A DNA stretch of 64,000 nt from Psammoneis japonica (lineage: Eukaryota). The position numbers and the translations under genes are program-made. The notes below the pieces were generated by a model. That model was not told the DNA's origin, ran no database searches, and worked only from the letters and a program-made list of their open reading frames with translations. Of the stretch, positions 37,248-64,000 are shown one piece after another. The DNA lies in the NCBI GenBank assembly GCA_008632985.1, contig QPGO01000147.1:62001-126000 (forward strand), in the 5' to 3' direction. Numbering within the stretch: position 1 is the stretch's first letter; the number at the start of each line of letters is the position of its first letter.

Positions 37248-37629
37248 GGCGCCGGCCGACGCGTTCCAGCCCTGGGTGGGAGCTCGCAGCACTGACGTGT
37301 GACACAAATAATTTTTATCATCCGTCGCATGTTTTGCACGTAGATTTCTACGTGTGACATTTAAAAAGAATTGTCCAGACTTGCTGTTTTGCGAAGCCCC
37401 ACAGACGTTTTGCACAACGAGTTTATAGAAACAACAAACTGGCCAAGTAAAAAATGATGTGCTTCAATCATGGGCGAGTTTGTGCATTCGCAAAATTGCC
37501 TCATTTTCTGTTGGCGATCATTGACATTTTAATTGCTGCACAATTTTGCTGCGGAGCTCGCATGCAGAAGTCTGCGGGCCCAATGTCACACGGATTCCCA
37601 CCTGCGTCTGGAACGCATCGGCCAGTGCC
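37248..37629. mobile_element. About 380-bp MITE with ~35-bp imperfect TIRs inserted in the CRE ORF
   Basis: Left end ggcgccggccgacgcgttccagccctgggtggga; right end reverse-complemented ggcactggccgatgcgttccagacgcaggtggga. AT-rich non-coding interior. It separates DDKTWHKSI from CPSQRCNAP. TSD not resolved. Confidence 0.72.
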
Positions 37630-37836
37630 CTGTCCATCGCAACGATGCAACGCACCAAATGGCTCGGTTGGCAAACGATTCATTGCAACGTTGGCAGAAC
37701 TGCTGGATGGAGTCACGAGGCGGAAGTGGAACTCGGAAAGATTCATGGCACATCAGACGGTTGTTTCACAGTGAGACCGCAACGTAAAAGGAGCCAAAGA
37801 TGTCAGAACTTTGCTCAGCACGCGCATGGACGATTG

Positions 37837-43800: not shown

Positions 43801-45797
43801 CTCAGAGCACTGCATTAACTTGAGGTTCGGTTGAAAGGAGAAAGGCCGACATCTGGAGGTCCGACGAAAAATGGAAGTTAAAGTAAGAGGTGAGTGGAGC
43901 CGAGTGACAATGTCGGGAGGACGCCCAATTTCTTGAGGGGGTGGAGGCGGCGAGATCCAACCCCTGCCTGAAAATCCGATTCCCTGTCTTTGTCATCCCC
44001 AGGGCGCTCGGGAGTTTCCATGTGGTTGGGGCGTTTTCTGGCGGAGCTCTGAGACGGTTGACTTGCTTGAAGGAGTTTAGCTGTTTGGTTCATTTGGTCC
44101 TGCATGGCAGCCAGTTGCTGGGAGCATTGTGACTGAAGTGCGGCCATGTCTTGAGTGTGTTGTTTGTTGAACGTGTCATTCAAAGCTTCCACATCCTTGG
44201 AATGCTGTTGGCGGAGTTCGGCCAGGGCCTGATCGTTCTCATGTTGCATCTGAGACAACGTCTGTTGCACTTCCGCCATCTGAGCTGAAGCAAGAGAGGA
44301 GCTCGACGTAGATTGAGCAGCTTGAGCACAAGACAATTGGGGAGACGGCATGCCAGGGCATCCAGCACAACCAAGTTTCGACAGAGATTGGGAGGAAAGG
44401 GGGGTGAAGATCTGAGGTGGAACCGGAGAACCTCGCGTGGGACCTCGACCGGGGAATCCTCGTCCTGCACATCCGCGACCAGGATGAGATTGCGATGGAG
44501 GGTGATGATGCGCACTGGGAGCATGAGTGTCTGTCAAAGGAGAAACGTCCAAAAAGGTTGGGGATTCGAGACTGCAAATGCTCGCAGAGACGATGGATTT
44601 GCTGGTCTCCGACGGTTCGTCAAAAACGCCTGAGACTTGAGGATGATCTGGGAAGGGAGGAGTCGGGTGAGATTCTTCCGGCAGATCTGGAATGAGATTC
44701 ATGACACACGTGGAAATTGCGGCACGTGCTGTCTTGAAATCCACTCGATTGACGAGAACATTGTGCCTCCCGTCGGCGGAGTTAGAGGCGCAAATGTCCT
44801 GCATGCCTTTCAAGGCCCCAATGTTTTGTTCGAAGTAGAACATCACACCTGGGGAAGCACACAAGAGCGGGACGATGCATGTGTTTTCATTGCGGCGGGC
44901 TTGAGTTTTGACAGCGTTGTAGAAGGCCAAGGGAGAGAGGTGACGGGTCTTGGCCATCACGACATGGGTCGGGAGTTTGTTAGATGCGCGCAACAAGACT
45001 CTCCCGGCATTGCGACACTCATCATTTTGAACCTCAATGGCAAAAGTCGTTGTGCGAATGGGAGTGGCGAGTTTGTCATTGTCTGCTCGGATTGACGCAG
45101 GCACCAGACGAAACTTTGGCATCTTGGTCTTGAATTCACCCAAATCTCCAAGAAACTTTTTGGTGGCGTCGTCGACTGGAGCATGTTTCGCAGCGGCAGC
45201 AATGTGGCAGGCCGGTGTCGCCGTGTCAATCACTGATTCATTCCAGGCGTGTCGTTTCATGCCCACATCACTCAGATCCAAAATGCTTTGAACATGAGGA
45301 TGAGAGCGAATTTCGCGAAGCGGTGACTTTGTAAGAATGCGATGACATGAGCGATGGGTGACCGGGCGTTTTTCACCACTGCGAGCAGTGGAGATGACGA
45401 AGTGACGTTCGTGCTGAAGGGAGGAAATCCAATCAGCCACATTGATTTGCGTGATTCAGTTGTTGTGGTCATCAAGGATTTGCACGTCTTTATGATGCGT
45501 GAAAAGAATCTGCTGTAAGACTTGTAAATGGGCAGTGACAAGAGTCATCGGCTTGCATGTCGCTGCAGGGCCATGAATTTCGAAGCGAAGAGTGATCTCT
45601 TCGAACTGACGCTCTTTCGGTTTAGAAGACGACTTAAGAGAAGTCTGATCAACGGTGGTGTCATCTGCCATGGTGGCGTTGTGGATGGGAGGAGGGGCAT
45701 GGCTGCCGTCAACGACGGAAGGAGACGCCATGGTGATCGGCTGTTCTACGGGGAGCCTGGTGCTGAAAACACGCAGGTGTGTTCAGTGCCAGCAATC
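37837..45797 (-). mobile_element. Apparently full-length Ambal-like LINE (ORF1; ORF2 = APE endonuclease, RT, RNase H), inactivated, flanked by 9-bp TSD GGACGATTG
   Basis: Identical GGACGATTG at 37828-37836 and 45798-45806. ORF1 at 45731-43878. APE motifs (FNANG, IQADVIGISE, FGDFN, RLDH, SDHRA). RT (GTGQGGGNSP, GHMDD). RNase H (GDGSV...FGW, RAEACG, CDN, WVKGHQD, NMRADRLA). T-rich 3' tail. Confidence 0.88.
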
Positions 45798-48700
45798 GGA
45801 CGATTGGGACGCGGGCAAGCACAAAATGCTGGTCCAATCAACGGAGCGGCTACTTGAAGCGAACCTAAAGACCATTCAAAGGGAGGAAATGCCTGAGCAG
45901 TGCACCAAGACATTCAACAGAATGGTGCTCCGAGGGAACCTACGAGGAGTGGTTGGGTGCATCTCTGAACGTGAAAAAGGTGGGATTCTCTTGCCGGATG
46001 ACATCGACGAAAAGACCAACAACACAGTGTTTGAAGTCCTTCAGAAGAAGCATCCAAACCAGAGGATCCTGGACAAAGACCACTTTCACAAATTCAGCGA
46101 ACTGCCTGAACTCCAGGACATGCTCATCACCGATGGCACCATCGAAACCGTCGCACGGAGACTGTCCGGAGGCGCAGGACTTGGTGGGTCTGATGCCAAC
46201 GCAGTGTCAGAGTGGCTTCTCCATCACGGAAAAGCCAGCGGATTGCTTGGAGAAGTGTTGTGCATGTTCGCGAACTGGCCAGCAAACGAGTCCCCCCGTG
46301 GGCCGCATGCCGTGCAATCATGGCGAAGAGACTCGTCGCGCCAGACAAAAATCCAGGCGCACGCCCAGTCGGTGTGGGGGAGGTGTGGCAATGAGCCACG
46401 CCAAAGCCGTTCTCCTGGTTGCTGGAGCAGAAGCCAAGGAAGCTTGTGGCACAGATCAGCTTTGCGCTGGACTGGAAGCAGGCATCGAAGGTGCCGTTCA
46501 CACTGTGAACCTGCTCTGGGAGCAACACAAATTCGAAGACGACTGCGGTTTCCTCTTTGTCGACGCCTCCAACGGATTCAACGAAGAGAATCGGATCCCA
46601 ACGCCACACAACGTAAGGCACCTGTGGCCATCGGGTGCAAGGTTCACCTTCAACAGTCACAAGCATTGGAGCATCCTGATCATCCGTGGAAACTTCGGAA
46701 CCGCCTTCATCTTGTTCAGCAAGGAAGGCGTCACGCAGGGCGATCCACTTGGCATGGCAGCATGCGGACCAGGCCTTCTTCCACCAGTCCGCGAGATGAA
46801 TGAACATTTCAAAGATGCACTCACACCATGGTACGCCGACGACTCCGCAGCAGCAGGAAATTTCGAGACACTGCGAGAATTCTTCCTCAGTCTCCGAGCC
46901 GAAGGCCCCAAACATGGCTGCTGCCCCACCGACAACTCCAAGAACATCCTGGCAGTCCCAGAACGCAACCTGGAAAACGCTGGAACATGCTTTGGAGATC
47001 CAGGCTTTACCATCAAGTCTGGCAGCCGTCACCTCGGAGGCTTCATTGGAGAGTCCGACGCGCGCGACCAATGGCTGGCGGAAAAGCCGAGTCATGGACC
47101 TCGGTCGTCCAGGGACTCGCCAAAATCGCAATTCATCACCCTCAGACCGCCCATGCCGGTCTGCAGAAGTCCCCACAACACCAGTGGCAATGCGTCCAAC
47201 GTGCAGTTAAGGACTGCGGCGAATCGTTTGCCGACGTAGAACGCGCAATGCAGCGCAATTTCCTGCCGGCTTTGACAGGTGAGACCCTGGCAGACGACGA
47301 CCCGAGACTAGCCCCATCCGCCCTCCCAATCAAATTTTCGGGACTGTCCATCCCTCGTCCAACTGAGTCCGCAGCTCACAACTACAAAGCAAGTGCTCTC
47401 ACGTGTTCCCACATGATTGACTCACTCCGCGGCCACTCCCAGTTCTCATCCGCAGTCCACAAGGACACCACATGCGAAGTGAAACAAGAAGTGGCCGATC
47501 GAAAGGTTGTGGCGCACAAGGAGACCCTCAAAACGATCCTCAGGACCTCACCCGACCTCCAGGCCAGAGCTGTCAAGCGCAGCACCAAGACAGGCGCGTG
47601 GCTCTCAGCGCCCTTTGACACTGAATGGCACGGAACTCTCATGCCAAGAGTTCCGCGACGCGCTCTTCCTGCGGCATGGCAGCACTCCACCGGACCTCCC
47701 AGAGCACTGCGATGGATGTGGATGCAAATTCACAATGAACCACGCCCTTCAGTGCAAGAAGGGCGGCCTGGTCATCTCACGACACGATGAAGTCCGTGAC
47801 AACCCAGGCAACCCAATGGGCAAGGCTTGCAAACCTTCCTGCGCACGTGACGAACCTCCAGTCAACCCCACTGGTCGCAGCGCAGGAAGCTCAAGCACCC
47901 CCACCAGCTCCCCAGGAAACACCAACTCCAACAAGTCCAAGGATGGCGATCGCGGTGACCTTCTCGGCATGCAATTCTGGGATGGAAGGACAGACATGGT
48001 GACGGATGTTCGCATTCCGACACGGATGCGAAGTCACACCCATCCAAAACACCAGAGGATGTCCTGGCAATGCACGAACGGGAGAAAAAGCGCAAGCACC
48101 TCAAGCCCTGTCTTGAGCAACGCCGTCATTTCACGCCCTTCGTAGTGTCATGCGACGGACTCTTTGGCAAAGAAGCCAAAGCAATGCTGCGCAAGACAGC
48201 CTTGAGACTGTCAGACAAATGGCAAAAGCCATGCTCTGAAGCACGCGGCTGCGTCAATGCGAGAATGAGCATCACCACAGTCCGGGCGACTCACCGTTGC
48301 CTCCGGGGATCCTGCATTCCCGCCTCTCACATCAGCTCCAGACGACCCCAGTGAGAAGACGGCGCTGGTCTGTCCCCGCACAGACACCAAATGACCCCGC
48401 CCAACTGACTGCACCCTTCCAGACAACATGCCAACTGACTGTCCACCCACAACATCGACATCGTGCCTGGAAGTTGACAAAAGCCCACCATCACCCCGAA
48501 AACGGTGCCACAACTATTTCAAATTTCGCGCGCACAGCCTGCAATCTTGCGCGTGACAACTGCCCCTCATTTGCACGACTGCGTTGGCTGTGCAACACCC
48601 ACTTGTCCATTTTTCTTTAAAGCTCAGACGTCACAGTTAGCTTCAAACTGTCATGTGTGGCAATTGTTTCAAAAATGAAACACATTCGTTTGGTCTTAGC

Positions 48701-51700
48701 GCCAGCAAAAACCGGGGCGTGGCACCCGGGTTTTCACATTGGCGACAGCCGTTAGACCAAAAAACAAATGTATGTTGACAATGGACTAAATCCCTTTTAG
48801 CCCTCTCTTCATCACTGTTGATCCATGCACATGCAGCAGCAACTGCCACAAACCAATTGCCGACTGCTGTGCTAAAGAAATGAGCGGCAGTGCAACGTCA
48901 AACAAGCAAGGACACTGGTGCACACAAATGACGGGCCGGCTTGTCACACTTTTGATTGGGCAAACACAAAAAAAACTCATCACCCATGACGAGTGCCGCC
49001 GCCGCCGCGTCGCCTTGCAGCTCCACTAAAATGACACTGACGGCTCTCTCACACAACACACACAATCCAAGAGTGTTCAAGTGGCTGTTGAGCTCTCAAG
49101 ATTGTTGAGAGATGGTTGAATGGGGTCACCCGATGCCATGCACTGAGTGCTGCTGCTGCTGCATTGTGCTGCAGCTGGACCGAGGAGAGGCAAAGAATGC
49201 TGATTGATGCCACAGACAGCTTGTCAATCATTGCAGTGCTAAAGTTGGAGTTGGAATGTGATGGAGGCACAATGCCATGCAACACAGCTGGTCATGACAC
49301 GAGCTGGTGCACCACCATTTTCAAGAAGGATGTGGGTGCCGGATGCTGCCGAGCAGAAGTTGGAGAAAAAATGCTGGAGTGAGACAGGAGAAAACCATGT
49401 GTGAGCAACAAGTTTGTGTTTTGATGGATCAAATGGCTGAAATTGAAATCAAGCATGCTCCAGTTGTCAACAGAGCTGCAGCGTTGCCATGGGCAGTTTT
49501 GCCTCCCACATGCTGGACACTGCTGCAGAACAAACCACAAGTCTTGGATGAAGTCAATTGGCTGGAGAGTTGCCACAGGAACCTTCTGTGAATGACACTC
49601 CACCCAATGAAAGGCTCATGTCACCCACTTTGTTGGAGTCATTGAGAATTTTTTCAGAGGCACTGCGCACAAGAAGCGTCGCATCGCACCCCCCCAGTGC
49701 CAGATTCCAAAGAACAGGGAAGTGCAGACAATGACAATGGTGGTGTGCAAGTTTCAATCTGAAGGTCACATCACTTCTTTCTCCAGATGAGGAGTGCACA
49801 GCACTGGCAAACAAGGCTGAGAACATGAAAAAATCAACCGTCAAACCACAGCAGACAGACACATCATTGAGTTGATCCACAGATTGTTGAGGAAAGTGGG
49901 GGCTGCTGTTGACACTTTGCATTGTCTGGACTGGCTTGATGATGAGCCATGTGTGTGCATGTTGCATGCTTGGCATTGAGTGAAATTGACCCAACTGACA
50001 TTGATGGTGGATGATGCAATCTCATTGACCCCCAAGTGAAGAAACCTGAGTTGTTGGTGTGCTCACTCATTCAAAGCATGACACAAAGCCAGTCATGACA
50101 GCATTCAAGACTGTCGCTGGGAGTGAAAGCCGGTGCAATGACTCTTTTCATTTCCATCCACTGGCAGTGGGTGTTGTTGATCTTGCCTCTCCTCAACAAG
50201 CAATTGAGAATGTGCTTGAGCAAGTCAGGGGCGGACACCATGTCAATGAGAAATGACTGTTTCATTCCCATTGATCTTTTCCAATGATGCCCCCAGAAGT
50301 CATGACATTTCAATCAGTGGAGCCAATGCGAGCATCAAGCGGTGTGTTTCAAAGTTTGCTCCTCTGAAACAATTTCAGAAGTCAGAAATGATGTGAGTGC
50401 GAGTGTGGTGTTGCTCAGTCACTCAGTTGACTGGGCTGTGGTGGCAGTTGGTGACTTTTCAACCCTGCAATCACCATGTTTGCAGACTCCTGTTCTGGCA
50501 TTGTGCATTTTGGTGGTGCACATTGGCCCGTTTGGGTTCTTCATGTTGTTCATGGGGGCAATGCCTTGCAGTGGACTTCTGTGCACTTTGCCATGCCAGC
50601 TGCTCTCCATGCTTGCGCACACATGTCTGAGGGAAGTTTTGAGAAATCAATCTCTGTGCGGTGCAGTGGTGGAATGCTGTGGCTGCTTTGCCTTGTTTAA
50701 GTTGCATGGATCTTCTGCCAAAAATGTTGAAATTTGCAATTTCCAACTTTGCATGCAAAACACCATGAGCAAGATCTGTCATTTGCAGCTGCCAGCAGTT
50801 TGTTTGAAGAAGTGATTCACCAAAAATGGAGCTGCAGTCCATCATTGTGCAGTGTCAGACACAATGACAATGACTGACATTTTGGATGCCCTTGTGCAGA
50901 GATCATCTTGACGGACATCTCCCATCATGCTTCTGGTGGCCGACTTGGGCTGTGACTGTGACGGGAGCCATGTTTGCTGTCTTTTTTCTGTTCCATTCCA
51001 AAACAAAAAAGGGTGCATCAATTCATGTTCCTGTCAATTCAATCTCACCATTTACAAGCAAGAATGAAATTGTGATTTTTGTGCCCACCCTCTGCCCCTG
51101 CAAACCTGCAAATTAAAATCATTTGCGTTGTGCCACAAACATTCCATTTTGTTGTTTGCATTTAACCCAAACAATGCTGAAGGAGACAACACCTCACAAG
51201 TTTGCAGCAGCAGTTGCAGCTCTCTTTCTTGAAGTGCCGTTGCCAGCAGCCACCTTGTTCATTGCCAAAAAGTGTGCCAGAGTGCATTGTGAGAGCACAG
51301 TGCAATGTGGCAATGACCGAATCAACATGGTCATGACAGACCAAAAGACATGGGTGCAGAAAAACCACAACATTTTAGCAGGAATGCAGGACCAACACCC
51401 TCACAAAGGCCGGCAGGCAGCAGAAATTGCTTGCATCACTGACTGACATCACAGATCAGGAACTTTTGCTTTGTTGCACTTTTCAAGTCTGAGACCTGAA
51501 CAATTCATCGCGAACATCGATTTTGCATCAAGAGAATTCAAGAGGGATTTTGGATTCAGCAATGGTGTGGCAGTTCTCAAGTCTTGAGCAGCAAGCCATC
51601 ACACTTCTTCTTCTTCCATCCAACTTGCTGTGTCCAACAGCCCCAATCATGACGGGTGAGCAGAGCAAGATTTGTGAGGCAGTGGACGACTTGCAAGCAC

Positions 51701-53639
51701 AACTTCCAAATGGCAATGGACTGAGCAATTTCATGCAACAGCTGTGGTTGAAGTTTTGCAGACAAAAAGTTGTCCAGGAGCTTTCCAGCTCAGATGACAT
51801 GGGTGCCATTCCACTGGATCTCCTTGATTGTGGTGCGTCAATCCTTCACCCACAAGTTGCAGGCTTTGGCACTGTGTGGGAGCATCCAGAAAAGGCCTCA
51901 ACATTTCTCATGTCACCAGAGGACATTCTCTGGGCTTGTGACACTCTTGGAGAAGACAGCCCCACTGTCAAGATCATGAATGGCATGCCACAACTGGACT
52001 TGATTGCAGGGCACATGCTGCTGCATTTTCCAATCAAAGAGCAGAGCTGCCACTCAGTTTGATGGTTTGTTGCTTGTGGGCAGCTGAATTTGTGTTTCAT
52101 TGCCCACCAAGGAATGCCATTGTCTGGCCAGGGCCACACAGCTGCAAGCCAGCATGCAAACCAGAACACTTGCCATCAAACAATTGAAAGTGGGTGGTGA
52201 CTCAGAGGGTCAAGCAAGCCAGTCATCTGCTGCAAATGGCCATGCAGCCAAGTGAGCTGCCATCAGTGCAAAACCCACAGTCAGACCAGTGCCCTCCTTG
52301 AGACAACATCCATGGGAGCATGGCTCTTCACACTGGATGGTGCCATCCATGTGTGGCAGCAGCATGCATGGCATGGGACAGGAAGGCAGTGCAGAGTGAG
52401 CTGCACATGGATGCAGCACTCACATCAGTGGTGTGCACAGACCATGAAAGGAGGAAGTGCTGCATGAAGACATGCCAGCCAGATCAATTGATTGGCTGCT
52501 CATTTGCTGCTCCTCATTTGTTGGAATCCATTGTCAGGGATTGACAAAAGGGCTGCCATGGCATTGCCAGAAGGATGAGCCACAGCAGTGGATTGATGGG
52601 CACTGGCACACAAAAGAGGTTGGCACACCAACCACTCCAACATTGGCCATGGACATTCTCAAATGTTGGCACATTTTCTGTAGTCTCTGCGTGTGCGAAG
52701 CTCGAATTTCGTGCCGAAGCAACAACCACCCTTCGGAATTGTGGAATCAATGTCCCGGGTGACAAACTCTGTCTGTTTGCCACCTGTTTGTTGTTCCGGA
52801 GCAACAGAACTTGACTGTGTGGGGACAACACTGAATTCAGCGTGAACGATCTTTCTGTTCTCAGACTCAAAAGATTGCCAAAACTCCATCCAACAACACA
52901 CATCGATGAAGTCTGTTGAGATGCATTTCTTTGCTCTTGTCAATGGAGAACGTCATTTGCAAGCTCTGGTTTTTTTCTCCAAGTGGTCATGCACCAAGCC
53001 AATTCAAAATGCATGGATGTTCATGTTTGACAGTTCAAGAGTTGTGAAATTTTGGAGTTTCCATCCACAAAATTCATTGCAAATTTGATCGTTTCAAAAC
53101 TAGAAACCAAAACTCTCACCCGCATTCTGACAATTGAACTGTGGATTTGGCTTCCACTGGCTCTTGTTCCCAGCACACTTGTTTTCTCTTTGTGACACAA
53201 GAGATGCGGTGTTGATTCCATCATGAGCGTGAGACATGCAAAAGAAAGAAATTTTGGCAAATTCGCAAGAAGTTTGTTTTCACTGCTTTTTCTTGTTGCA
53301 TTTTCTTGAACTCATTTGCATCAAAATTGCTTTGCTTCTGCCAGCAATTGAAACTGGCAAGAACGCTCTCTGTCAATCAATGATGAGTGAGGCTCATCAT
53401 CACTCGCTTGACTTTCACCCTGTGTTCGAGTCAGATTGGGATCTTTTCTGTGAGCCGACAGAGGACTTGATGTTCTCTGAAGAAGACACTCAGATGCTTG
53501 AAGACTGTGTGGCTGAAAAGCATTCCTTGGAGCTCTCTCAGGATCAACCAAGGTGGCATCTTGAAAAAGACTGTGGAAAAAATGTTGTCATTGCATTTGA
53601 CAAAAAGCAAGTGCAAAGTGTGAGAAGTTGCAAAGGGGG

Positions 53640-54520
53640 AGATGGGAGAATGCTGCAAACAAGTCACAAGGAGGACTGGCAAATCTTTTGAGGACATTGA
53701 TCCTTTAGAAGACATTTTGCTGTTGCACAACATGGGAAAGCACAGTCCTGTGACACAGTTGATGCAGTTGAAACTTGGTCTGGGGTTTGAGGAAGTTGCC
53801 ATTTTTCTCTTGATGCACTGTGTGCAAAAAGTGTGCCTCCTCTCTGTGGATCAGCTCTGCAGGGATGATGACAAGAGGCTGCACAAGTCAGGACTTGTGG
53901 AGAAATCAAAGCACAAAGCCATGTGGAAAATTGTTGGCAAGTCCCCTTCTCTTGCAGGTGAAGAATGTTGGAAGCTTCAATGAGTTGTGTCATGACCTCA
54001 ACGTGAGTTGGAGGGCATCTCTTGTGTTGTCTCATTGGATGATGACAAGAAGAAAGCCACAGTCAACAATGGTGATGGCATGCAGGTTTAAAGCAAGTGG
54101 TCCATGCTGACAAAAGAAAAGGCATTGTTGGTCATGCTGCAGTTTCTCCAGCAACACTCTTGACACATGGAGCATGCTGAGAGCAATGTGGCAAGTTGGC
54201 CTGCGAGTGCTGCATTGATCTGGTCAAGACAGTGTTTGGGAAAAAGCCCAATCTTGATGGAGCAACATTCTGCTCTAACCGCAGGTGCTGGACATTGAAG
54301 CCAGTGCAATGCATGTTAGAGAGTGGAGCCAAAGTCCATGGTGCGGTTCAAAGACAACATTGGCATCAGTTTGCCTGTTGTCAAGATCTTAAGATTGGTG
54401 ATCTGAGGACCTTAATTGACAAGGTTGGCCTGCCAGCCCTCTGCACAAGATCAGGAAAGATTGCCAATGGAGATGTTGAGACACAAATGCATTCCGCAAT
54501 GGGACAAATGGGGTTGCATT
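53640..54520 (+). pseudogene. Decayed piggyBac-like DDD transposase
   Basis: LDDDK at about 54035 and FCSNRRCWTLKPVQCMLESGAKVHGAVQR, which resemble the piggyBac D-motif and D..Y...L...L...G....GT.R motif once TA changes are reverted. Frameshifted. Confidence 0.45.
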
Positions 54521-55116
54521 GACCACATCATCAGTCCATTGCGGTGCACATTGAGATTGTGTCACATGCAACAAGAAGACGATGTCGAACAAAATCCCAC
54601 CCGGCACAAGCCCTGAGCTGCATTGCGTGGAATTGGGTCAGTTGGAAATTGAGCATGTTGCTGAGTGCCAGTCAAATGCTGGGTGGTTCAAGGCACATCA
54701 GAACTCATTGACATCATCCAGGGTGGACATGCAGGTCAGCATTCAGCTCAGGCTGCTGGACAAAGAATGAAATGAGCATCATCATCATTGGGTCAAGTTT
54801 GAAAAGCACCTTGACATGAACTTGGGTTTGACCAATGAAGAGGATGCTGGAGCGAGTGCCCAAGAGACCAACGCAGCAGCCGATGTGGAACCTGTGGGAG
54901 ACAGTGCCTCTGGCCCAAGCGCAGATGGCAAAACCACACCAAAGTCAATCAAGTGGAGGAACACTTCAATCTTGATGATCCATGGTTTGACCCAGACATG
55001 GATGCAGATGCCCGACTTTCACAAGTTGACAGGGAGCATGATGAGGCAGAAGAAGTGGAGGCAAAGGTCAAGGAGATTCTTGCTGATGTGACGGACATGG
55101 CGGAATGAAACAATGA

Positions 55117-55833
55117 ATGCTGGGACAAACTCACATCAGAATTGAAAGCTCAGTCTCACAAACAGCCACTGAAAGAGTTTGTCAAACAAATGGGTTGGAA
55201 GCCATTGGTTTCCTTGGCATCCAGCCTAAAGAATGCCACAACTTGGCTGGAGGTGACACCTGCAGTGTGTCCCCACATTGTTCTGAACAAAACGCAGCTC
55301 AAGGTCAGTTGATCAAAGCACGTTGGCAGCTTGCAACTTCCTTTGATGCTCACATGGTGACTTGTTCTTGTTCACAGCTGGAGCACAGATCAAAAATCAG
55401 CAGCACGATCCCATCCAGTGTCTCAAAGAACAGTGACTTTGTTGCTGTTCTGAGTGGCAACGCAAATCCACCAGTCTCGCGAGACAACAATGCTGGGCTG
55501 GCAACGCCTCTGGAAGCCACTGCAAAGACAAACTTCCTTCCTCCACTCAAAGGGGAGGCAAAAAATCTTTGCAGGTTGGTGCACAAGATGGAGAAAAAGC
55601 ATGGTGAAGATCTTCTTTCCATTGCCAAGGATGCAGTGTCTTTGGAGAATGGCTCAGCATTGGAAATTGATCACCTGTTTGGAGCTGGCTTGCTGCAAAA
55701 GTGCAAAAAACCACACCAAAAGAACTCACCTGACTTTGTTGCTGCAGGCAGAATTGACGGTGAGCTCATTGTTGCCGTCATTGAAATGAAGGCCCAGTGC
55801 AAATCCTTGACTGCAGCAAAGGAACACAGTTGA
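55117..55833 (+). pseudogene. Decayed YqaJ/lambda-exonuclease-like PD-(D/E)xK domain
   Basis: GAGLL......H...SPDFV...........VIEMKA matches the YqaJ GL...Y...SPDG...IEIK pattern. Confidence 0.55.
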
Positions 55834-56954
55834 ATTGCCAAGGTTGGCCAGCTCTCTTTCATTTCTTGCAATTCTCCAGATTTGCGCAAGCATGCACCCA
55901 AGCGGTCAGAAGCAGTGCAGGTGAGACTGTGCTTGTTTTGTCATCACACCGGTGTAATTCATCTGCACTCACCATGTTGTCTGTCATGCATTTTCCAGTG
56001 CACTCATCATGTGAGTGCTCTTGGAGCAAACCACATGATGCTTGCTGCAGGTGACCAACTCGGTTTAACTGGGGCAGATGTCATTCACTGCAATGAAGAG
56101 TTTCTCAAGCATTGTGAGAAGTGCTTCAATGACATGTGCATGAGTCCTCCTTAAAATGGGTGTGTGAGGGTTGTGATGAAGATCAATTGGAGGAGTGGAG
56201 CCATGACAAGGCAGAGACACCTGCAGAAGAGACAAAAAGGCAGCTGTGTCAAAGGCAAGGGTGAAGATCAGCTGTGAAACATTCATGAAGTCCTTTTGCT
56301 TCTGGAAAGAACTTGCCAAACTGGAGCGCTTGCCTCTGCCACCTTGTGAATGAATCATGCCAATGCAGCATGCATGCTGGAACAAGATGAAACACAGATC
56401 CGATGTGAAAACACAGCATTGCCAGAGACAATCCTCTGTCATTCCTGAAAATTCCCCTGGGGCAAAGGCGTGCAACCAAATGCAAATGACGCTGCTTTCT
56501 GATGTTCACAAGGGAGATCAGAACTTCTACACCAAGGAAGATCTGAGCAAGTGCAAGTCCATCCACAACTGTTGTGACAGCGTGAAACACTCATTGGGCT
56601 TTTGCAAGGCATTGCTCATGTCATCAAGGATTTTTCAAAGGCTCTCCAAGGAAGAGTTGTGCAGCAGTGCAGAACCAAGTGCATCTCAATGAGCATTGGT
56701 GTCACCTGGTGCGTGGTCCCTCTGCAATGTCTTGTCACTCAACAGTCAAAAATTCTCTTCTCCTCCAATCCAGCCCAGCAATTGTTTGCACCATCTCCTG
56801 TGCCCATCTTTGTGCAAGCTGCAAGGCCTGCCTTGTGATGATTTCTGGGCCAAACAAGTTTCTTCAATGTGGGATTGAGACAACAATGCCAAGCACTGGC
56901 TCTTTCACAGGGATGGAGGCAACAACAAGTGTGCAGAAATCCTTGTCCATGGGC

Positions 56955-57445
56955 TGTCATTTGCGCATGCACTGCATGTTTAAGAAGAAAGCTTCAGCAA
57001 AAGGTCAAATTGCTCCAGCTCTTCCCCTTGACTGCTGCGCGTGCAGAGAGGCTCCAGTGTGCCAACCCATGACTCCAGGAGTGGACCCAACAAAGAAAGT
57101 TGAGAGTGCCCAGTTTGCATTTGATGACACCTTTGACCAAAACACCAGACTTGTGGACAAGCAACTTGCCACATGATTCTAGGTGTCTTCTTTGAAGGAC
57201 AGTGGAAAAGTTTGTTTGCATGGGAAGACCAGAAGTGGCAAGACATTCACAGCAATCGGGTGCAACTTGACCAGGAGCAATGCCAATGGAAACCAACATG
57301 ATGAATCCAACCTGGGGCTGTGCCACATCCTGGCAGTGCTTGACATTTTCAAACTGGCAGATGTGCCAGAGAATGGACAGAAGTTGTCAGCAGGCTTTTC
57401 TCTGTTTTGAGATCTGCACCCAGTGGAAAGCTGTTTGATTTGTGT
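56955..57445 (+). pseudogene. Kinesin-13-like motor-domain fragment
   Basis: GVDPTKKVESAQFAFDDTFD (cf. KVDLTK..E...F.FD..FD), HGKTRSGKTFT (P-loop YGQTGSGKT) and CFEIC..GKLFDL (FFEIYGGKLFDL), with stops and frameshifts. Confidence 0.7.
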
Positions 57446-57920
57446 GCCCAATTGGCCATCAAGTGTTTGCAACTGTGTGGCACAGAGCATGAAAAGATTG
57501 CTGCAATTGGCAAAAAGCACACAGTTTGGAAACAAACAAGAGCTGCTGTGGCAATGAATGAATGATGAGAGTTGATCATCCAGCCCTTCCTTTCTTCTTT
57601 GTGTGAGCATTGCATTGACATTCAAAATGAATGATGTGCACTTGTCACCTTGCATTTTGCAATGTGAGCATCATGTCACTGCGCCAAATGCGTGCACACA
57701 TTTGCCTGACATTTTGCAGTGCAAGCACATCCTCATTTGCCTGATTTTTCATGATGCACAAATTTGTTGCGACTCTTCTTGTGCTGACATTGCCCTTCTC
57801 AAATGGCATCTTTTTGGCTCCAGCATGCCCTTTTTGTCCTCATTGGTCAGTTGTGCAACCTCACTGCAGCATGACAAGAAATGTTCTTCAACTGAAAACA
57901 ATGGGAGTCAAACCCTTGTG

Positions 57921-57963
57921 GCTGGCTTGCATGCTGGCTTGCATGCTGGCTTGCATGCTGGCT
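57921..57963. repeat. 12-bp tandem repeat (gctggcttgcat) x3.5
   Basis: Read directly from the sequence. Confidence 0.85.
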
Positions 57964-59175
57964 GTTGTTTCTTACAATTTTCCACCATGTGAGAAATGTT
58001 TCTGCACAGGCTCCAGCACAAATTCTGTGTGGCTCAGCAGAAACCACCAACCATCCACTGGCCACAGCTCCAGACTGCTTCTTCTGTCCATGACAACTGC
58101 TGGGACTCAATGCGAAGCACTGCCTCTGCAGTGCCTCCCTTGCAAGCATGAGTGTGAGTTGTCCTCTGGTGTCCATCAACTGCTTTTTTTGAAGATCTGT
58201 CTGAATGTGATTGTCCTTTGTAGTTTTGTGATGTGCCCTCTGTGTGGCTGTCACCTCCTGCTGCAAGCACACAACAAATTCCTTGTGGCAAGACACTCCT
58301 TTTCAGTCATTTGGCAGGGTGCCATCTTCTGGTGGTGCCTGCTCTGGCCAACCTCATGCAAGCTCCTGCCATGCTGAAGCAGTGTGCTGGGAGTGTGGGT
58401 TGGCCGGTGCTGGCCTGGCTGGCAACAGAGCAGCAGCACCAAAAAAATTGTTGTTTTTTGTGTGCACCATTTCCCATGTTGTGTTCTCTTCTGTTTGCCT
58501 TCTCTCTTGCAAAAAGAAGAGGCAACAGCCACAGGCAAAAAGCAGTGTGGGTGTGGTGTCGGTGTGTGTGTGGGGGCAAGCACATGGCTGGGGTTGCAAC
58601 AAGGCACCACCACCAAGCAAGTGGCACATTGATGTGGATTCAACGATTGTCTTGGGCCTTGGGTCATGGTGCTCCAGCATGGCACTCGGCACTGTTTTGC
58701 AGATGATGAGCATGTGGGGGATGGTTGGCCTCCTGGGGGTTGCAAGGCCCCTGCTCTTGCACCACCAAGCCATGTTTGGCTCTTTGCAGCCATCTCATCA
58801 ATCCTGCATGTGCAGCTTCAACTCACCACCACCCGCCGCTGACTTTGGATCACCTCCAGGAGGCAGCAGTCGCAGTGTCTGTGCCACACAATCACACAAC
58901 ATGGACGACAACTCATGTAAAGTAATGTGTGTTTAATGTGTCTGCTTGTTGAAACTTCCTTTGCTACAATCATAAAGGTTATGCTCCTGTCTACACTCCA
59001 GTCCAACCTCTCGTAGCAGACATCTCGGCGAAGCTTTGACTCACAGGACCAACGTTCTTATCAAGTCGTTGGATGCTAAAAGAACGTTTTTAGCAAAGTT
59101 TTCTTCTTAAAATTAAGGCAGCATCTATTGTGAATATGCTGTGGCTCTGTCCCGTTTCTTCCTTCAGTCTCCTGC

Positions 59176-61129: not shown

Positions 61130-62730
61130 GTGGAGGCCAGAGAAGTCGGAAAACAAAACACCGCTCGCGAGTGCGTCACGCCTTCTGAGAGCAACAACGA
61201 AGAAGGGCAGAGTCTGGCAACTGTGACCATCCATCAGCAGTTTGCATGGACTGGTCTAGCTCGTGATGCAGAGGAAGAGAAATCGCCACTTGCTGATGCA
61301 GGGTTGGAAACGAGTGATGAGAGCGACAATGTTTGGTTTGATGACCCAGCGCTGTGGAACGTTCTCGGCTTTGCTGTTGACGTTGGCCCTGACCACCTCA
61401 AATTGCAGTGCGTCTGTAAGCGGTGGAAGAGTGTCGTGGACATTCTAGTTCCCTCTGTCATTCTCAAAATGGCACGCCGACTGGAAGACTTTTCTGCCCG
61501 TGTTGTTGTTCCTCTCGATGAGATTGTGTTGCTGTGGGACGAAGCACTTGCGCTTTGCAAGACTCGCGACAGTGCTCTCTGCCAAAGAGTTGATGAGCAA
61601 AAGAACGGGAAACTTTCACACTGGCCAAAGCTTCAACCCCAATTCAGTGTTGCAATGATGCGATTCGTGTGTGACACTGCAACTCACCATCCCACCTGGG
61701 AGGATCTTGGATGCCGAACTGTGTGCGCGTCGATCCAGTCCTTTTTTGACGCCCTTGCCGATGAATCGGTGGACAAATTTTGGAAGACAGTGGAGAATAC
61801 AAAATTAGCGAGAACTGGTCCTTTGGAGCATGTTGAGAAGCTCGTCACTGTTTGGCGAGAATGGGCTGGCTTGGTAGAAACCGTAGATGGCTTGGCCGAC
61901 TGCCTCAACCACTTTTTCTTGAGGCAGCAAAATCTTCCATCAATCTCTCAGACAGCTGAACGCGCCTTGGTGGGCTTGGCAAGCGTCGCTCAGCAGAATT
62001 AGCAGCAATGACTGCATTGTTGCACAAGATTTCATTGTGAGTTGCGGCAGCGAGGATGTCACCAAAGGATTGGAGGCATTCGAACGTGATGTCATTTTGC
62101 AAGCATTGAGTGCTTGTGAAAGACTTCAGAGTTTTGCGCAATCCAGAGAAGTGGGCACTCAGCAGATCCCGGAGGGATGGGCTTTGGCACACAAGACTCA
62201 TTCATGGATTCAGTCTACATTGTCCCCTCTGTTGAAGGCCTGTTCTGGGGAGGACCATTTTAAGGCTGACAACGATGTAGAAGCAGTTGCTGCAAAGCCC
62301 ATCACTGTCCAGTGCCCTGGAGGTCACGAGCATGTCATGAAGTTGGACAGCCACTTTTTCAAATCCAGCGGATTTTTGAAACGTCTCAAACTGCAACCTG
62401 GTGATGTGATGCGCCTCCCGATTCAAAATGAAAGGATGGAAATGGTGCTTGAATTCCATGCAATGGATGAAGCAAACCCCTTGCCAAATCTTCTGACCCC
62501 TTTGATTGGAGAGTCCAAGAAACTGTTGGCGAGAGCCACTCGAGGTTCACATTGGACCTGTCGGGATCTACGATTATGAAGCTCATCGCCGATGCAAACC
62601 TTTTGGATTGCAGGAAGCTTGTTGATCTTTCCTGCACCGCGTTTGACAAGGTGTTGTCTTCGAAAACGCTTGAAGAACGTTGCCAAATGTTTTCTCAAGA
62701 AGAGGAAGCTCAGCAGACAAGGATGCGACG
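61130..62730 (+). pseudogene. F-box-like + cullin-repeat-like + Skp1-like coding region, frameshifted and TpA-depleted
   Basis: LWNVLGF...LQCVCKRWKSVV (F-box-like). LVTVWREW...DCLNHFFLRQQNLPSI (cullin repeat 1-like). RLPIQNERMEMVLEF...MKLIADANLLDCRKLVDLSC...KTLEERCQMF (Skp1-like). Two frame changes. No Tyr in the 290-aa and 180-aa ORFs. Confidence 0.55.
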
Positions 62731-63099
62731 GAATTACAAAGGCAGGATTAGGCCAACAAATTTTTTGTATCCTCATTGCCTGCCTGCTCATTCGTTCTTT
62801 CCCAGCAGTCGTCTTGGTCTTCCTCTTCCATGTCATTCTCATCGATGTCTTCATCAAAAACAGATTCGACCCAGTCGTCTTCGTTCATCACAAAGTGGCA
62901 TCCATGGAACTGGTGCATCCCAATTACCTCCATGTGCTGACGATCGGCGCGGATGCAAGGGTCGCGGTGCTCGTGGATGCACAATCGTGGAAAAAAGATT
63001 GCGACAACGTGCACCACCACGCAGAAGGGATCTCTCCGCCGTTCTGTGCATCTCGAACCCGAGAACAAGAATCAAGAAAAGGAATGAGGCGAGAAGACT

Positions 63100-63567
63100 T
63101 GGCACTGGCACTGGCAGCGACACTTGCAAGATGCGCTCTACAAGCCACAGTGCTGGTGCTCATGATGCGCCCATTGCTGCAAACAGCACCAAGAGTGGCA
63201 CCAAGCTTCCCTGCAGGAAAATGGTGGGGCTGCGCAGAGAACACAATTGGGCCTGCTCACAAGCACGCATGCACGTCACAATGTCTCATGTTGAGTTGTT
63301 GCTGTTGCCCATCAAATTAAAAAATTCTTTCCCCTGAATGTTGCACCACTGGCAGCATCACTGGCATTTTTTGTGTTGCTGGTGCAACTTCTTCCAGCTT
63401 GCTTCATTTTTGGCATCTCCCTCTGCTGGCAATGACGTGGTCTTCTGGTGGCGTGCAGTGCTCAAGGTGTGGCCATTGCTGATCACACCTGCAGCACCTC
63501 CCACTTCACGGCATGACCCCATTCCCCCAATGGCAGTGTGGTGCTGGCATGCCACACAACACAGCCA

Positions 63568-63598
<31 letters not shown>

Positions 63599-64000
63599 AG
63601 TGTCATTCTGGGCCCACACTCAAGCTTCAGAGTGCAAGCAAGCCAAGTGTTTGTGACGACTCTCACTTCTTCATGCAAAACAGCCAGTGCTCTCAACAAT
63701 GCTGCAGAGGAAGCAGAAATGAGCTGCCATTGTTGTTGGCATCATTCCATGCCGCTCAAGCAGCTGTCAAAAATGCAAGAATCAAAATGACAGTGGAGAG
63801 CACTGGTGGTGGCTGGAATGTGTGCACGTGCTGTTGCCGCTGTGAAATGCTGAAGGCCTTTGCCAGCATTGCATTTGTTCTCTCTTCAACCCTGTTGTTT
63901 GTTCTTTTTTGTCCAAGACTTGCCATTTCTCTCTTTTTGCCTTTTCTGCAGCTCACGTGCTGAGCAGCTCAACTCGCTGAAATGCTGCAACAATCAAAAA
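63100..64000. repeat. TpA/CpG-depleted island 4 including a (CTG)9 tract at 63571-63597
   Basis: Same compositional signature as the other islands; continues off the window end. Confidence 0.7.

What the first reader, a model, noticed from the sequence alone, without database searches (positions are those of the whole stretch)
45800..58920. Two-stage decay: TpA is lost before CpG
The structurally intact LINEs keep abundant CpG (about 39 CG vs 1 TA in 46021-46620, manual count). The neighbouring, barely recognisable island has lost both (about 5 CG and 3 TA in 55801-56400; about 6 CG and 4 TA in 3001-3600). TpA loss therefore cannot be a by-product of CpG deamination and appears faster. Both processes converge on TG/CA, and the CpG level could serve as a relative age clock.
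Basis: partly seen in the sequence, partly recalled or inferred. Interest (0 to 1): 0.8.

Follow-up and report, generated by a model that had tools for sequence, protein, structure and literature searches.

The report
TpA-targeted hypermutation of diatom transposons
In what looks like a diatom genome, dead jumping genes have had nearly every TA step changed to TG or CA while most CG steps survive, a defence-like mutation pattern so far reported only in one unrelated alga.

Summary
The counts are exact: 39 CG/1 TA in 46021-46620, 5/3 in 55801-56400, 6/4 in 3001-3600. Gene DNA of this window would give about 25 TA per 600 bp.

The TA loss is mutation, not composition. At 22 columns where homologous reverse transcriptases keep Tyr (codon TAY), the two LINEs have Tyr 3, Cys 8 (TGY), His 4 (CAY). 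Other conserved residues are kept in 261 of 379 columns.

The LINEs are not intact. One has 2 frameshifts, the other at least 5, and the first is inserted inside the second. Their long ORFs exist because TAA and TAG stops are gone.

The window has three states, and none of 128 500-bp windows is CG-poor yet TA-normal. The order TA first, CG later therefore fits. It is not shown to be an age series: the islands match no transposon or protein family, and the two LINEs of known relative age have equal TA and CG levels.

The closest known case is the TpA-only hypermutation of integrated viruses in Bigelowiella natans (2026 preprint). My searches found no such report for diatoms. The CpG loss is most simply ordinary decay of methylated repeats.

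The parts
36600..37827 (+). 5' part of LINE2, a plus-strand non-LTR retrotransposon, cut off by the LINE1 insertion. TA o/e is 0.27 and CG o/e 0.92 (measured over 36500-37827).
   Evidence: Homologues P0306, P0312 and P0314 align to 36675-37834 and continue at 45760-45799. TA density drops at about 36.6 kb.
37828..37836 (.). Left copy of the 9-bp target-site duplication GGACGATTG of the LINE1 insertion.
   Evidence: Read directly. The joint 37827->45798 has 9 letters that fit either side, in 2 contigs of run X1.
37837..45797 (-). LINE1: a 7961-bp minus-strand LINE with endonuclease, reverse transcriptase and an RNase H-like part, plus a possible ORF1 at 43878-45455. It is a dead copy with 2 frameshifts. 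TA o/e is 0.13, CG o/e 0.83 and Tyr 0-0.6% of its ORFs.
   Evidence: Pfam Exo_endo_phos E 1.6e-6. 127 homologues, best E 1.5e-101. Tyr columns give Y 2, C 6, H 3 of 17. Frames are, the empty-site joint and composition.
45798..45806 (.). Right copy of the 9-bp target-site duplication.
45798..48600 (+). 3' part of LINE2 (reverse transcriptase with YADD at about 46830, homology to 48378). It has at least 5 frame changes. TA o/e is 0.13 and CG o/e 0.81 (measured over 45798-48900).
   Evidence: 3414 homologues, best E 5.7e-70. Tyr columns give Y 1, C 2, H 1, F 1 of 5. Frames are and composition.
49200..58850 (.). Island C: 9.65 kb with both TA (o/e 0.03) and CG (0.19) nearly gone and TG/CA at 1.85. 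No recognisable gene or transposon.
   Evidence: 0 credible Pfam hits. Logan contigs reproduce 52716-57499 with 14 differences.
2400..5300 (.). Island A, same state (TA o/e 0.06, CG o/e 0.16).
13800..16250 (.). Island B, same state (TA o/e 0.04, CG o/e 0.23). TA loss reaches about 200 bp further out than CG loss on both sides.
61200..63199 (+). TA-depleted, CG-keeping block with coding-like 3-base periodicity and Tyr-poor ORFs (0-0.7%). Family unknown.
   Evidence: TA o/e 0.14 and CG o/e 0.70, periodicity 10.2. Tyr 0-0.7%. No Pfam family at significance. Atlas best score 0.88 with low recognition.
63200..64000 (.). Island D, same doubly depleted state (TA o/e 0.02, CG o/e 0.24). It runs off the window.

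Best explanation
The window comes from a diatom-like genome. Transposon-derived blocks in it have been hit by a DNA-level hypermutation aimed at the dinucleotide TpA. Either base pair of the step undergoes a transition, so TA becomes TG or CA, on both strands. The efficiency depends on the base 3' of the target adenine (T > C > G > A).

The process is confined to the elements and stops within about 200 bp of their edges. It removes Tyr codons and TAA/TAG stops, which kills the element's proteins and leaves long false ORFs.

A second, slower and independent process removes CG in some of the same blocks. This is most likely deamination of 5-methylcytosine in CpG-methylated repeat chromatin. Both processes end in TG/CA.

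Shown here: the direction and target of the TA changes, their restriction to the blocks, both-strand action, the context hierarchy, and the nesting of the states.

Inferred: the enzyme (a DNA adenine deaminase, as proposed for Bigelowiella natans), methylation as the cause of CG loss, and the reading that the doubly depleted islands are older.
For: 1. Direction and target. At 17 columns with Tyr in at least 60% of 38 homologues, LINE1 has Y 2, C 6 (TGY), H 3 (CAY), F 4, W 1, L 1. It keeps W in 8 of 8, H in 11 of 12 and K in 11 of 12 columns, and 180 of 256 non-Tyr columns overall (Fisher P 2e-6). LINE2 has Y 1, C 2, H 1, F 1 of 5. The 38 homologues have Cys in only 2 cells at 23 Tyr columns. 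Their Tyr content is 2.8-4.7% against 0.3% here.
2. Baseline. 80 related LINE loci from metagenomes have TA o/e 0.37-0.81 and CG o/e 0.52-1.16. The same region here has TA 0.14 and CG 0.75.
3. Dinucleotide budget. TG/CA rises to 1.35-1.5 where TA alone is lost and to about 1.85 where both are lost. GpC rises and ApT falls, as TAC>TGC, GTA>GCA, TAT>TGT and ATA>ACA predict.
4. Both strands. TG is about equal to CA on the sense strand of LINE1 (1.35 against 1.39), with a modest TG excess in LINE2 (1.51-1.56 against 1.33-1.34). Both Y>C (8) and Y>H (4) occur.
5. Context. ATAN and NTAT are nearly extinct while TTAA and CTAA/TTAG survive. Fitted loss exponents by 3' neighbour A, C, G, T are 0.25, 1.09, 0.52, 2.33 in the LINEs and 0.41, 2.26, 1.12, 3.61 in the islands. 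The order is the same in both.
6. Sharp edges at element borders.
7. Copy-specific changes. Of the 40 listed differences to other copies, 5 are window TG/CA against TA elsewhere and 12 are window TG/CA against CG elsewhere. The opposite cases number 2 and 2.
8. Precedent. A mutation-accumulation experiment in B. natans saw 230 of 231 mutations in integrated viral regions as A>G or T>C, the GC-biased ones all at TpA. TpA-poor coding sequences there were enriched in reverse transcriptase domains (bioRxiv 10.64898/2026.01.13.699255, Results read).
9. Diatom methylation is mainly CpG and lies on repeat blocks up to 30 kb long (PMC5124317, passages).
10. Nesting. 0 of 128 500-bp windows are CG-low with normal TA, 26 are TA-low only and 32 are low in both.
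Against: - No ancestral or sister copies could be aligned base by base, so the substitution spectrum rests on codon inference and dinucleotide budgets.
- Only 40 of 2874 read differences were visible.
- The baseline for 'loss' is borrowed from neighbouring genes and from foreign relatives. The search for those relatives required Tyr in both peptide patterns, so hypermutated copies could not be found by design.
- LINE2 is older than LINE1 by nesting and by frameshift count, yet it has the same TA and CG o/e. Time dependence is therefore not visible where it could be tested.
- The islands have no demonstrable transposon origin.
- No methylation data, no deaminase gene and no whole genome were available.
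- 4 of 17 Tyr columns in LINE1 carry Phe, which is not a TA>TG/CA product.
Confidence: 0.7

Rival explanations
1. The two states differ by targeting, not by age. All blocks receive TpA hypermutation, but only some (the islands) are CpG-methylated heterochromatin and so lose CG. The LINEs are not methylated, or only weakly. CpG level would then report chromatin state, and there is no 'two-stage decay' of one kind of element.
For: - LINE1 and LINE2 have a known age order but identical TA and CG o/e.
- TA exposure differs only about 1.6-2.2-fold between islands and LINEs while CG exposure differs about 8-fold.
- The switch from CG-kept to CG-lost is abrupt, for example at 48.8-49.4 kb and 63.0-63.4 kb.
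- In Cyclotella some repeats are hypomethylated and 'under a different control mechanism' (PMC5124317, passage).
Against: - The islands have lost all protein and periodicity signal, and the core 52.7-57.5 kb is covered only by its own contig. The LINE region drew 3488 similar contigs. This fits greater age.
- TA exposure is higher in the islands in every context class.
Confidence: 0.35
2. The LINE families are TA-poor by composition or selection, for example UpA avoidance in RNA, codon usage, or escape from a TA-reading defence. They were not mutated after insertion.
For: - TpA is mildly under-represented even in the window's genes (o/e 0.62).
- One ordinary-looking gene (23056-25035) has TA o/e 0.30 with normal Tyr content.
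Against: - Invariant Tyr residues of the reverse transcriptase are replaced by exactly the TA>TG and TA>CA products. In LINE1, columns that are Tyr in 97-100% of homologues carry Cys. In LINE2, a column that is 100% Tyr carries His.
- Both elements are frameshifted.
- 80 relatives have TA o/e of 0.37 or more.
- Non-coding islands show the same loss with the same context hierarchy.
Confidence: 0.05
3. RNA editing followed by retrotransposition. Adenosines after U in LINE transcripts are deaminated (ADAR- or ADAT-like) and the edits are fixed when the RNA is copied back into DNA.
For: - The 5' U preference of ADAR and ADAT enzymes fits TA>TG (discussed in the preprint).
- The best-characterised targets here are retrotransposons.
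- Y>C outnumbers Y>H by 8 to 4.
Against: - T>C changes on the sense strand (4 Y>H) and a TG:CA balance close to even on the sense strands need action on both DNA strands.
- The islands show no retroelement features yet have the same signature.
- Some differences are specific to this copy.
- In B. natans the targets are single-copy integrated DNA viruses mutating in situ.
Confidence: 0.07
4. One dual-specificity deaminase removes both steps. It would deaminate A in TpA and C in CpG in targeted DNA, so CG loss in the islands is enzymatic hypermutation and not methylation decay.
For: - ADAT2-type enzymes are reported to deaminate both A and C in DNA in amphioxus and trypanosomes, as cited in the preprint.
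- CG-lost domains always lie inside TA-lost domains.
Against: - CG loss shows only a shallow context dependence (survival 0.10-0.39 across contexts). TA survival spans 0 to 0.44.
- The LINEs lost about 80% of TA with little CG loss, so the two activities are at least uncoupled.
- Methylated repeat blocks are documented in diatoms.
Confidence: 0.08
5. Sequencing or assembly artefact, for example systematic miscalls at modified bases.
For: None found, beyond the general fact that modified bases can bias some base-callers.
Against: - Logan contigs of a public run reproduce 48800-57499 in four pieces with 1-14 differences each. They may come from the same sample as the assembly, so this is not fully independent.
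- The changes are coherent at codon level and respect element boundaries, which include a clean 9-bp target-site duplication.
Confidence: 0.02

Closest known systems
TpA-specific hypermutation of integrated viral DNA in the chlorarachniophyte Bigelowiella natans (Mettrop et al., bioRxiv 10.64898/2026.01.13.699255, 2026; abstract, Results and Discussion read)
   Same: - Transitions at TpA only, giving TpG or CpA depending on the strand.
- Confined to foreign or selfish DNA within sharply bounded regions.
- A long-term footprint of TpA-poor, CpA+TpG-rich windows. TpA-poor coding sequences there are enriched in reverse transcriptase, endonuclease-RT and DDE domains.
   Different: - The host here is a diatom-like stramenopile, not a rhizarian.
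- The targets here are LINEs and unidentifiable islands, not giant-virus and virophage inserts.
- Depletion here is near saturation (o/e 0.03-0.13). The hypermutable NCLDV region there has Rho TpA 0.45, and the virophage region is not depleted at all.
- A 3'-neighbour hierarchy is seen here; I saw none reported there, and its supplementary tables were not readable.
- The preprint's text never mentions CpG (0 occurrences), while here a CG-lost state sits on top of the TA-lost one.
- No de novo mutation rates are available here.
Repeat-induced point mutation (RIP) of fungi (PMC2621366 and PMC7296669, search listings with the start of their abstracts only)
   Same: A DNA-level, dinucleotide-specific transition hypermutation that inactivates transposons and leaves a diagnostic dinucleotide skew.
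   Different: - RIP changes C to T mainly at CpA and so creates TpA and depletes CpA/TpG. Here the flow is the opposite: TpA is destroyed and CpA/TpG are created.
- The target base is in an A:T pair here, not a C:G pair.
- Dependence on duplication is not shown here, and the B. natans target is single-copy.
CpG decay of methylated repeats by 5-methylcytosine deamination; CpG-methylated repeat blocks of diatoms (PMC5124317, passages read)
   Same: CG o/e of about 0.2 with matching TG/CA gain, in repeat-like blocks of 2.5-10 kb lying between CG-normal genes.
   Different: Methylation of these islands was not measured. The islands are also stripped of TpA, which methylation decay does not do.
ADAR/ADAT-type A-to-I editing with a 5' U preference (as discussed in the preprint)
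   Same: Adenine after T/U is the target, and the outcome reads as A to G.
   Different: These enzymes are known chiefly as RNA editors. Here both DNA strands are affected and non-retroelement DNA is included. No enzyme was identified.

Membership tests
TpA-specific DNA hypermutation of foreign or selfish DNA (Bigelowiella natans type) | Changes are transitions at TpA, giving TpG or CpA | tested here: met
   Conserved Tyr (TAY) is replaced by Cys (TGY) in 8 and His (CAY) in 4 of 22 columns, and Tyr is kept in 3. The TG/CA gain balances the TA loss. This is indirect evidence, not a polarised base-by-base spectrum.
TpA-specific DNA hypermutation of foreign or selfish DNA (Bigelowiella natans type) | Both strands are affected (TpG and CpA both produced) | tested here: met
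   On the sense strand TG and CA o/e are 1.35 and 1.39 in LINE1 and 1.51 and 1.33 in the LINE2 3' part. In the islands they are 1.85 and 1.85.
TpA-specific DNA hypermutation of foreign or selfish DNA (Bigelowiella natans type) | Restricted to bounded regions of foreign or mobile origin; neighbouring genes are spared | tested here: met
   Edges are sharp to about 200 bp at 36.6, 59.0 and 61.2 kb and at the island borders. Genes keep TA o/e 0.62. Mobile origin is shown for the LINEs only, not for the islands.
TpA-specific DNA hypermutation of foreign or selfish DNA (Bigelowiella natans type) | De novo mutation rate in the region is raised by orders of magnitude, and is episodic between lines | not testable with these tools
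   This needs mutation-accumulation or pedigree sequencing of this organism.
TpA-specific DNA hypermutation of foreign or selfish DNA (Bigelowiella natans type) | Candidate ADAT2-like DNA adenine deaminase in the host | not tested
   No whole genome is held for the window, and no deaminase domain appeared among the window's ORFs scanned against Pfam.
Fungal RIP | C to T at CpA, raising TpA and lowering CpA/TpG | tested here: not met
   TpA o/e is 0.03-0.13 and CpA/TpG is 1.35-1.9. This is the reverse of RIP.
Methylation-driven CpG decay | CG depleted with TG/CA gain and no strong flanking-base rule | tested here: met
   In the islands CG o/e is 0.16-0.24 and survival by context is 0.10-0.39.
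Methylation-driven CpG decay | The region carries 5mC at CpG | not testable with these tools
   No methylation data were available. Only contigs of one DNA run were found.
RNA editing of retroelement transcripts (ADAR-like hypermutation) | A to G on the sense strand only | tested here: not met
   Sense-strand T>C changes occur (Y>H, 4 of 12 Tyr-destroying transitions), TG and CA are close to balanced on the sense strands, and the non-retroelement islands share the signature.
Non-LTR retrotransposon (LINE) with AP-type endonuclease | Endonuclease plus reverse transcriptase in one ORF, flanked by a target-site duplication | tested here: met
   Exo_endo_phos E 1.6e-6. Homologues carry PF03372 and PF00078. 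There is a 9-bp duplication, and 2 contigs show the empty site.
Non-LTR retrotransposon (LINE) with AP-type endonuclease | Intact, potentially active copy | tested here: not met
   LINE1 has 2 frame changes and LINE2 at least 5 against full-length homologues. Near-invariant Tyr residues are lost.

The most novel reading that the evidence does not exclude
TpA-directed DNA hypermutation may be an old genome-defence system shared across the SAR lineages, seen experimentally in a rhizarian and as a saturated footprint here in a stramenopile. It would be a mirror image of fungal RIP that works on A:T pairs. In diatoms it would act together with CpG methylation as a double lock: a fast, episodic strike erases Tyr codons and TAA/TAG stops within the element, and methylation then slowly erases CpG. 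The TAT > TAC > TAG > TAA preference would be the fingerprint of the still unknown DNA adenine deaminase.
Probability: 0.3. Interest if true: 0.85.

Novelty: new member of a known kind. Interest (0 to 1): 0.62.

Why it matters
Context-specific hypermutation used as genome defence is well established in fungi (RIP) and in animals (APOBEC and ADAR). A TpA-specific version was reported only in 2026, in one chlorarachniophyte.

A saturated TpA footprint on retrotransposons of a diatom-like genome would suggest the process is not a curiosity of one alga. Diatoms are ecologically dominant and genetically tractable, so the enzyme could be sought there.

There are also practical consequences:
- Such blocks carry long false ORFs and Tyr-free 'proteins' that mislead gene prediction.
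- They escape similarity-based repeat annotation.
- They distort composition-based inferences.

The flanking-base hierarchy measured here is a testable prediction for any candidate deaminase.

Tried and rejected
- **Earlier notes of this scan:** nothing on this genome, on this sequence or on TpA in eukaryotes. The TpA-related notes returned were phage cases and do not bear on this.
- **Self-comparison:** blastn of the window against itself gave 7 pairs, none linking islands to LINEs or to each other.
- **tblastn against the window:** 13 of the window's own ORFs hit only themselves. The 120 LINE1 homologues hit only 37.5-44 kb.
- **Pfam on the islands:** 135 ORFs of at least 70 aa gave only scattered hits, all far below the curated cut-offs (best E 0.0034).
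- **Repeats in island C:** only short, weak matches, with no LTR or TIR structure.
- **Same-species LINE copies among shorter database proteins:** 62 hits, best identity 46%, none from the same family.
- **Sequencing runs:** one sample with three runs, kept as contigs only. No RNA holder was listed, so nothing can be said about expression or RNA editing.
- **Read laying:** only 40 of 2874 differences were shown, so context statistics across copies could not be computed.
- **Metagenome relatives:** 80 loci, and 0 of 1942 500-bp windows had TA o/e below 0.2. Both search patterns contained Tyr, so hypermutated copies were excluded by design.
- **Atlas search of ORF 61058-62002:** best score 0.88 with low recognition, so it stays unidentified.
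- **Rule for Y>H against Y>C from the preceding base:** 4 cases with G, A, T and T before the codon, which shows no pattern.
- **Gene 23056-25035:** considered as an intermediate stage (TA o/e 0.30). Rejected because it has normal Tyr content (1.8%), strong periodicity and CG o/e 1.11.
- **Literature:** six searches found no report of TpA loss in diatom transposons. The only relevant paper is the B. natans preprint.


Full report
**1. The observation**

| Piece | CG (o/e) | TA (o/e) |
|---|---|---|
| 46021-46620 | 39 (0.83) | 1 (0.04) |
| 55801-56400 | 5 (0.15) | 3 (0.07) |
| 3001-3600 | 6 (0.17) | 4 (0.10) |

At the TA density of the window's ordinary genes (42.3 per kb), 25.4 TA are expected per 600 bp. 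The Poisson probabilities are 2.5e-10, 2.9e-8 and 1.9e-7.

A 1-kb profile and a 200-bp profile at the borders show three states with edges sharp to about 200 bp:
- **Ordinary genes:** TA o/e 0.62, CG o/e 0.99.
- **TA-only depletion:** about 36.6-48.6 kb and 61.2-63.2 kb, with TA 0.13-0.14 and CG 0.70-0.83.
- **Double depletion:** 2.4-5.3, 13.8-16.25, 49.2-58.85 and 63.2-64 kb, with TA 0.02-0.06, CG 0.16-0.24 and TG/CA about 1.85.

Of 128 non-overlapping 500-bp windows, 70 are normal, 26 are TA-low only, 32 are low in both, and none is CG-low with normal TA.

**2. What the elements are**

The genes in the window are amino-acid transporters, an FAD monooxygenase, a ClpB/C-type chaperone, and BTB and LRR proteins.
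- The closest named relatives of the chaperone ORF are all from diatoms (Cylindrotheca, Nitzschia, Thalassiosira, Seminavis, Fistulifera and others), at 49-59% identity. The best unnamed hits reach about 62%.
- The named relatives of the LINE are also from diatoms (Fragilaria, Cylindrotheca).
- The window is therefore most likely from a diatom that is not itself in the protein database.

LINE1 lies on the minus strand.
- It has an AP-type endonuclease (Pfam E 1.6e-6), a reverse transcriptase and an RNase H-like part.
- It has 127 homologues, with a best E-value of 1.5e-101 at 43% identity.

LINE2 lies on the plus strand and has a YADD reverse transcriptase. It has 3414 homologues, the best at E 5.7e-70.

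LINE1 is inserted inside LINE2:
- Two contigs of a public run join 37827 directly to 45798, skipping 7970 bases, with 9 letters that fit either side.
- The same 9-bp word flanks the insert at 37828-37836 and 45798-45806.
- LINE2 homologues align collinearly across the gap, for example P0306 residues 12-126 to 37496-37831 and residues 123-288 to 45790-46290.

LINE1 is therefore younger than LINE2.

Neither copy is intact. Against full-length homologues, LINE1 changes frame twice and LINE2 at least five times. The many long ORFs in several frames and on both strands follow from the loss of TAA and TAG.

**3. The TA loss is mutation, in the direction TA to TG/CA**

Tyr is the only amino acid whose codons (TAY) all contain TA.

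LINE1 was tested in an alignment with 38 of its homologues. At the 17 columns where at least 60% of them have Tyr and LINE1 has a residue:
- Tyr is kept in 2.
- Cys (all TGY) stands in 6 and His (all CAY) in 3.
- Phe stands in 4, Trp in 1 and Leu in 1.
- Columns that are 97-100% Tyr in the homologues carry TGC here.

By contrast:
- Trp is kept in 8 of 8 columns, His in 11 of 12, Lys in 11 of 12 and Arg in 13 of 18.
- All non-Tyr residues together are kept in 180 of 256 columns (Fisher P 2e-6).
- The 38 homologues show Cys in only 2 cells at their 23 Tyr columns. Their Tyr content is 2.8-4.7% against 0.3% in the window's ORF.

LINE2 was aligned with 40 of the 150 listed homologues. It gives Tyr 1 (the YADD Tyr), Cys 2, His 1 and Phe 1 at 5 columns. 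Other residues are kept in 81 of 123 columns.

All ORFs in TA-depleted DNA have 0-0.7% Tyr. Nine of the 11 gene ORFs have 1.8-4.4%, and the other two have 0.5% and 0.7%.

As an outside baseline, 80 related LINE loci from metagenomes have TA o/e 0.37-0.81 and CG o/e 0.52-1.16 over the homologous region. The window has 0.14 and 0.75. This sample could not contain hypermutated copies, because both search patterns include Tyr.

**4. Signature**

- **Strand symmetry.** TG and CA are raised about equally on the sense strand of LINE1 (1.35 and 1.39). LINE2 shows a modest TG excess (1.51-1.56 against 1.33-1.34), and the islands are even at 1.85 and 1.85. Both Y>C (8) and Y>H (4) occur. Both DNA strands are therefore affected, which argues against sense-strand RNA editing fixed by retrotransposition.
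- **By-products.** GpC rises to 1.27-1.7 and ApT falls, as expected from TAC>TGC, GTA>GCA, TAT>TGT and ATA>ACA.
- **Surviving TA steps are not random.** ATAN and NTAT are almost extinct in the LINEs (ATAT 0 against 32.5 expected, ATAC/GTAT 3 against 71.8). TTAA (12 against 25.4) and CTAA/TTAG (24 against 34.9) survive.
- **Fitted hierarchy.** In the model each TA step offers two target adenines, and the loss depends on the 3' neighbour. The fitted exponents for A, C, G, T are 0.25, 1.09, 0.52, 2.33 in the LINEs and 0.41, 2.26, 1.12, 3.61 in the islands.
- **Same order in both classes.** The order T > C > G > A holds in LINEs and islands, so one process probably acted on both and went further in the islands. 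The same data can be written as a thymine target with a 5'-neighbour rule; the sequence cannot tell these apart.
- **CG loss** in the islands has only a shallow context dependence, with survival 0.10-0.39.

**5. Evidence from other copies**

At 80% likeness, 3488 contigs of run X1 lie on 37.5-57.5 kb. Differences are mostly transitions: A>G 548, G>A 618, C>T 541 and T>C 383 places, against 62-118 places for each transversion class.

Only 40 of the 2874 differing places were printed. Among them:
- 12 are window TG/CA where other copies have CG, against 2 in the opposite sense.
- 5 are window TG/CA where others have TA, against 2 in the opposite sense.

At least part of both losses is therefore specific to this copy. 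The sample is small and selected.

The island core 52716-57499 is covered by one contig with 14 differences. Summed word depth there is about 60-110, against 230-2870 over most of the LINE region (237-33,552 across all its bins). The tool warns that depth is not copy number.

**6. Is it a two-stage decay?**

For the order 'TA first':
- The empty quadrant, 0 of 128 windows.
- TA loss reaches about 200 bp beyond CG loss at both edges of island B.
- TA exposure is higher in the islands in every context.
- The islands have no protein hits (0 credible Pfam hits in 135 ORFs) and no 3-base periodicity (2.9-6.3 against 8-21 in coding DNA).

Against a simple clock:
- LINE2 is older than LINE1, yet both have TA o/e 0.13, and their CG o/e is 0.81 and 0.83.
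- From LINEs to islands the TA exposure rises about 1.6-2.2-fold, while the CG exposure (minus the log of o/e over the gene baseline) rises from about 0.19 to about 1.6.
- This fits a fast TA strike that saturates or is episodic, followed by slow CG decay. It fits equally well a difference in CpG-methylation targeting between blocks.
- The islands cannot be tied to any transposon family, so their 'age' remains an inference.

**7. Comparison with what is known**

Six literature searches found one directly relevant paper, a 2026 bioRxiv preprint on Bigelowiella natans. I read its abstract, Results and Discussion. It reports:
- In mutation-accumulation lines, 231 of 302 nuclear mutations fell in an integrated giant-virus region and a virophage region, and 230 of those 231 were A>G or T>C. 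All of these AT>GC changes lie at TpA, giving TpG or CpA.
- The rate was about 6e-7 per site per generation, and hypermutation was seen in only 11 of 15 lines.
- The TpA-poorest coding sequences were enriched in reverse transcriptase, endonuclease-RT and DDE domains.
- 124 clusters of TpA-poor, CpA+TpG-rich windows were found.
- An ADAT2-like adenine deaminase was proposed as the agent.

The preprint's text mentions neither CpG nor diatoms (0 occurrences each). Its supplements were not readable here.

The window shows the long-term footprint that this process predicts, but differs in several ways:
- The host belongs to a different supergroup lineage.
- The targets are LINEs.
- The depletion is close to saturation.
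- A flanking-base hierarchy is measurable.
- A CG-lost state is layered on top.

For the CG part, diatom methylation is mainly at CpG and concentrated on repeat blocks up to 30 kb long, lying between unmethylated gene-rich stretches (PMC5124317, passages).

Fungal RIP works like this in logic but in the opposite chemical direction (C>T at CpA, creating TpA), so this is not RIP.

**8. Verdict**

- The claim of intact LINEs is wrong.
- The core idea holds for the LINEs: a separate TpA-destroying process that runs ahead of CpG decay and ends in TG/CA.
- The age-series and clock readings are unproven and partly contradicted by the nested pair.
- The thing itself is best filed as a new member, in a diatom-like genome and on retrotransposons, of the TpA-specific hypermutation first reported in B. 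natans. It is combined here with ordinary methylation-type CpG decay.

Noticed in passing
window 11817-13244, especially 12245-12716: GC-rich block (61% in 12001-13000, AT skew -0.55) with tandem copies of about 230 bp at 80-90% identity. Long ORFs run on both strands and no Pfam family was found.
   Followed up: no
window 9227-10537 (+), 31826-33004 (+), 59621-60445 (-): Three paralogous Aa_trans amino-acid transporter genes within 64 kb. The first two are 65% identical in DNA over 830 bp.
   Followed up: no
window 37500-38166: Summed word depth in run X1 is 33,551 here, against hundreds over most of the neighbouring LINE bins. A short, very high-copy piece seems to lie at the LINE2/LINE1 junction or in the A-rich end of LINE1 (37837-37860).
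   Followed up: no
window 61200-63199: TA-depleted, CG-keeping block with coding-like periodicity and ORFs almost free of Tyr. There is only a weak F-box hint (Pfam E 0.004; Atlas score 0.86). It may be a hypermutated host-like gene or an unknown element.
   Followed up: partly
window 37828-48900 (LINEs): Among surviving TA steps followed by C, 15 of 37 are followed by CG (TACG), against 128 of 640 in genes. All 3 surviving conserved Tyr codons are TAC followed by G. An adjacent CpG may protect the step, or this may be chance.
   Followed up: partly
window 23056-25035: A 659-aa ORF with IQ-like repeated motifs and an internal 155-bp tandem duplication (24059-24366). Its TA o/e is 0.30 but its Tyr content and CG are normal. 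It is a TA-poor ordinary gene, not a hypermutated one.
   Followed up: partly
window 48600-48799: A short patch with normal TA density (7 in 200 bp) separates the end of LINE2 from island C, so the two are separate units.
   Followed up: no
window 57923-57963: Short tandem run of the word GCATGCTGGCTT inside island C. Words made of TGCA and GCTG/CAGC are the most enriched tetramers of the islands (TGCA 3.4-fold over genes).
   Followed up: no
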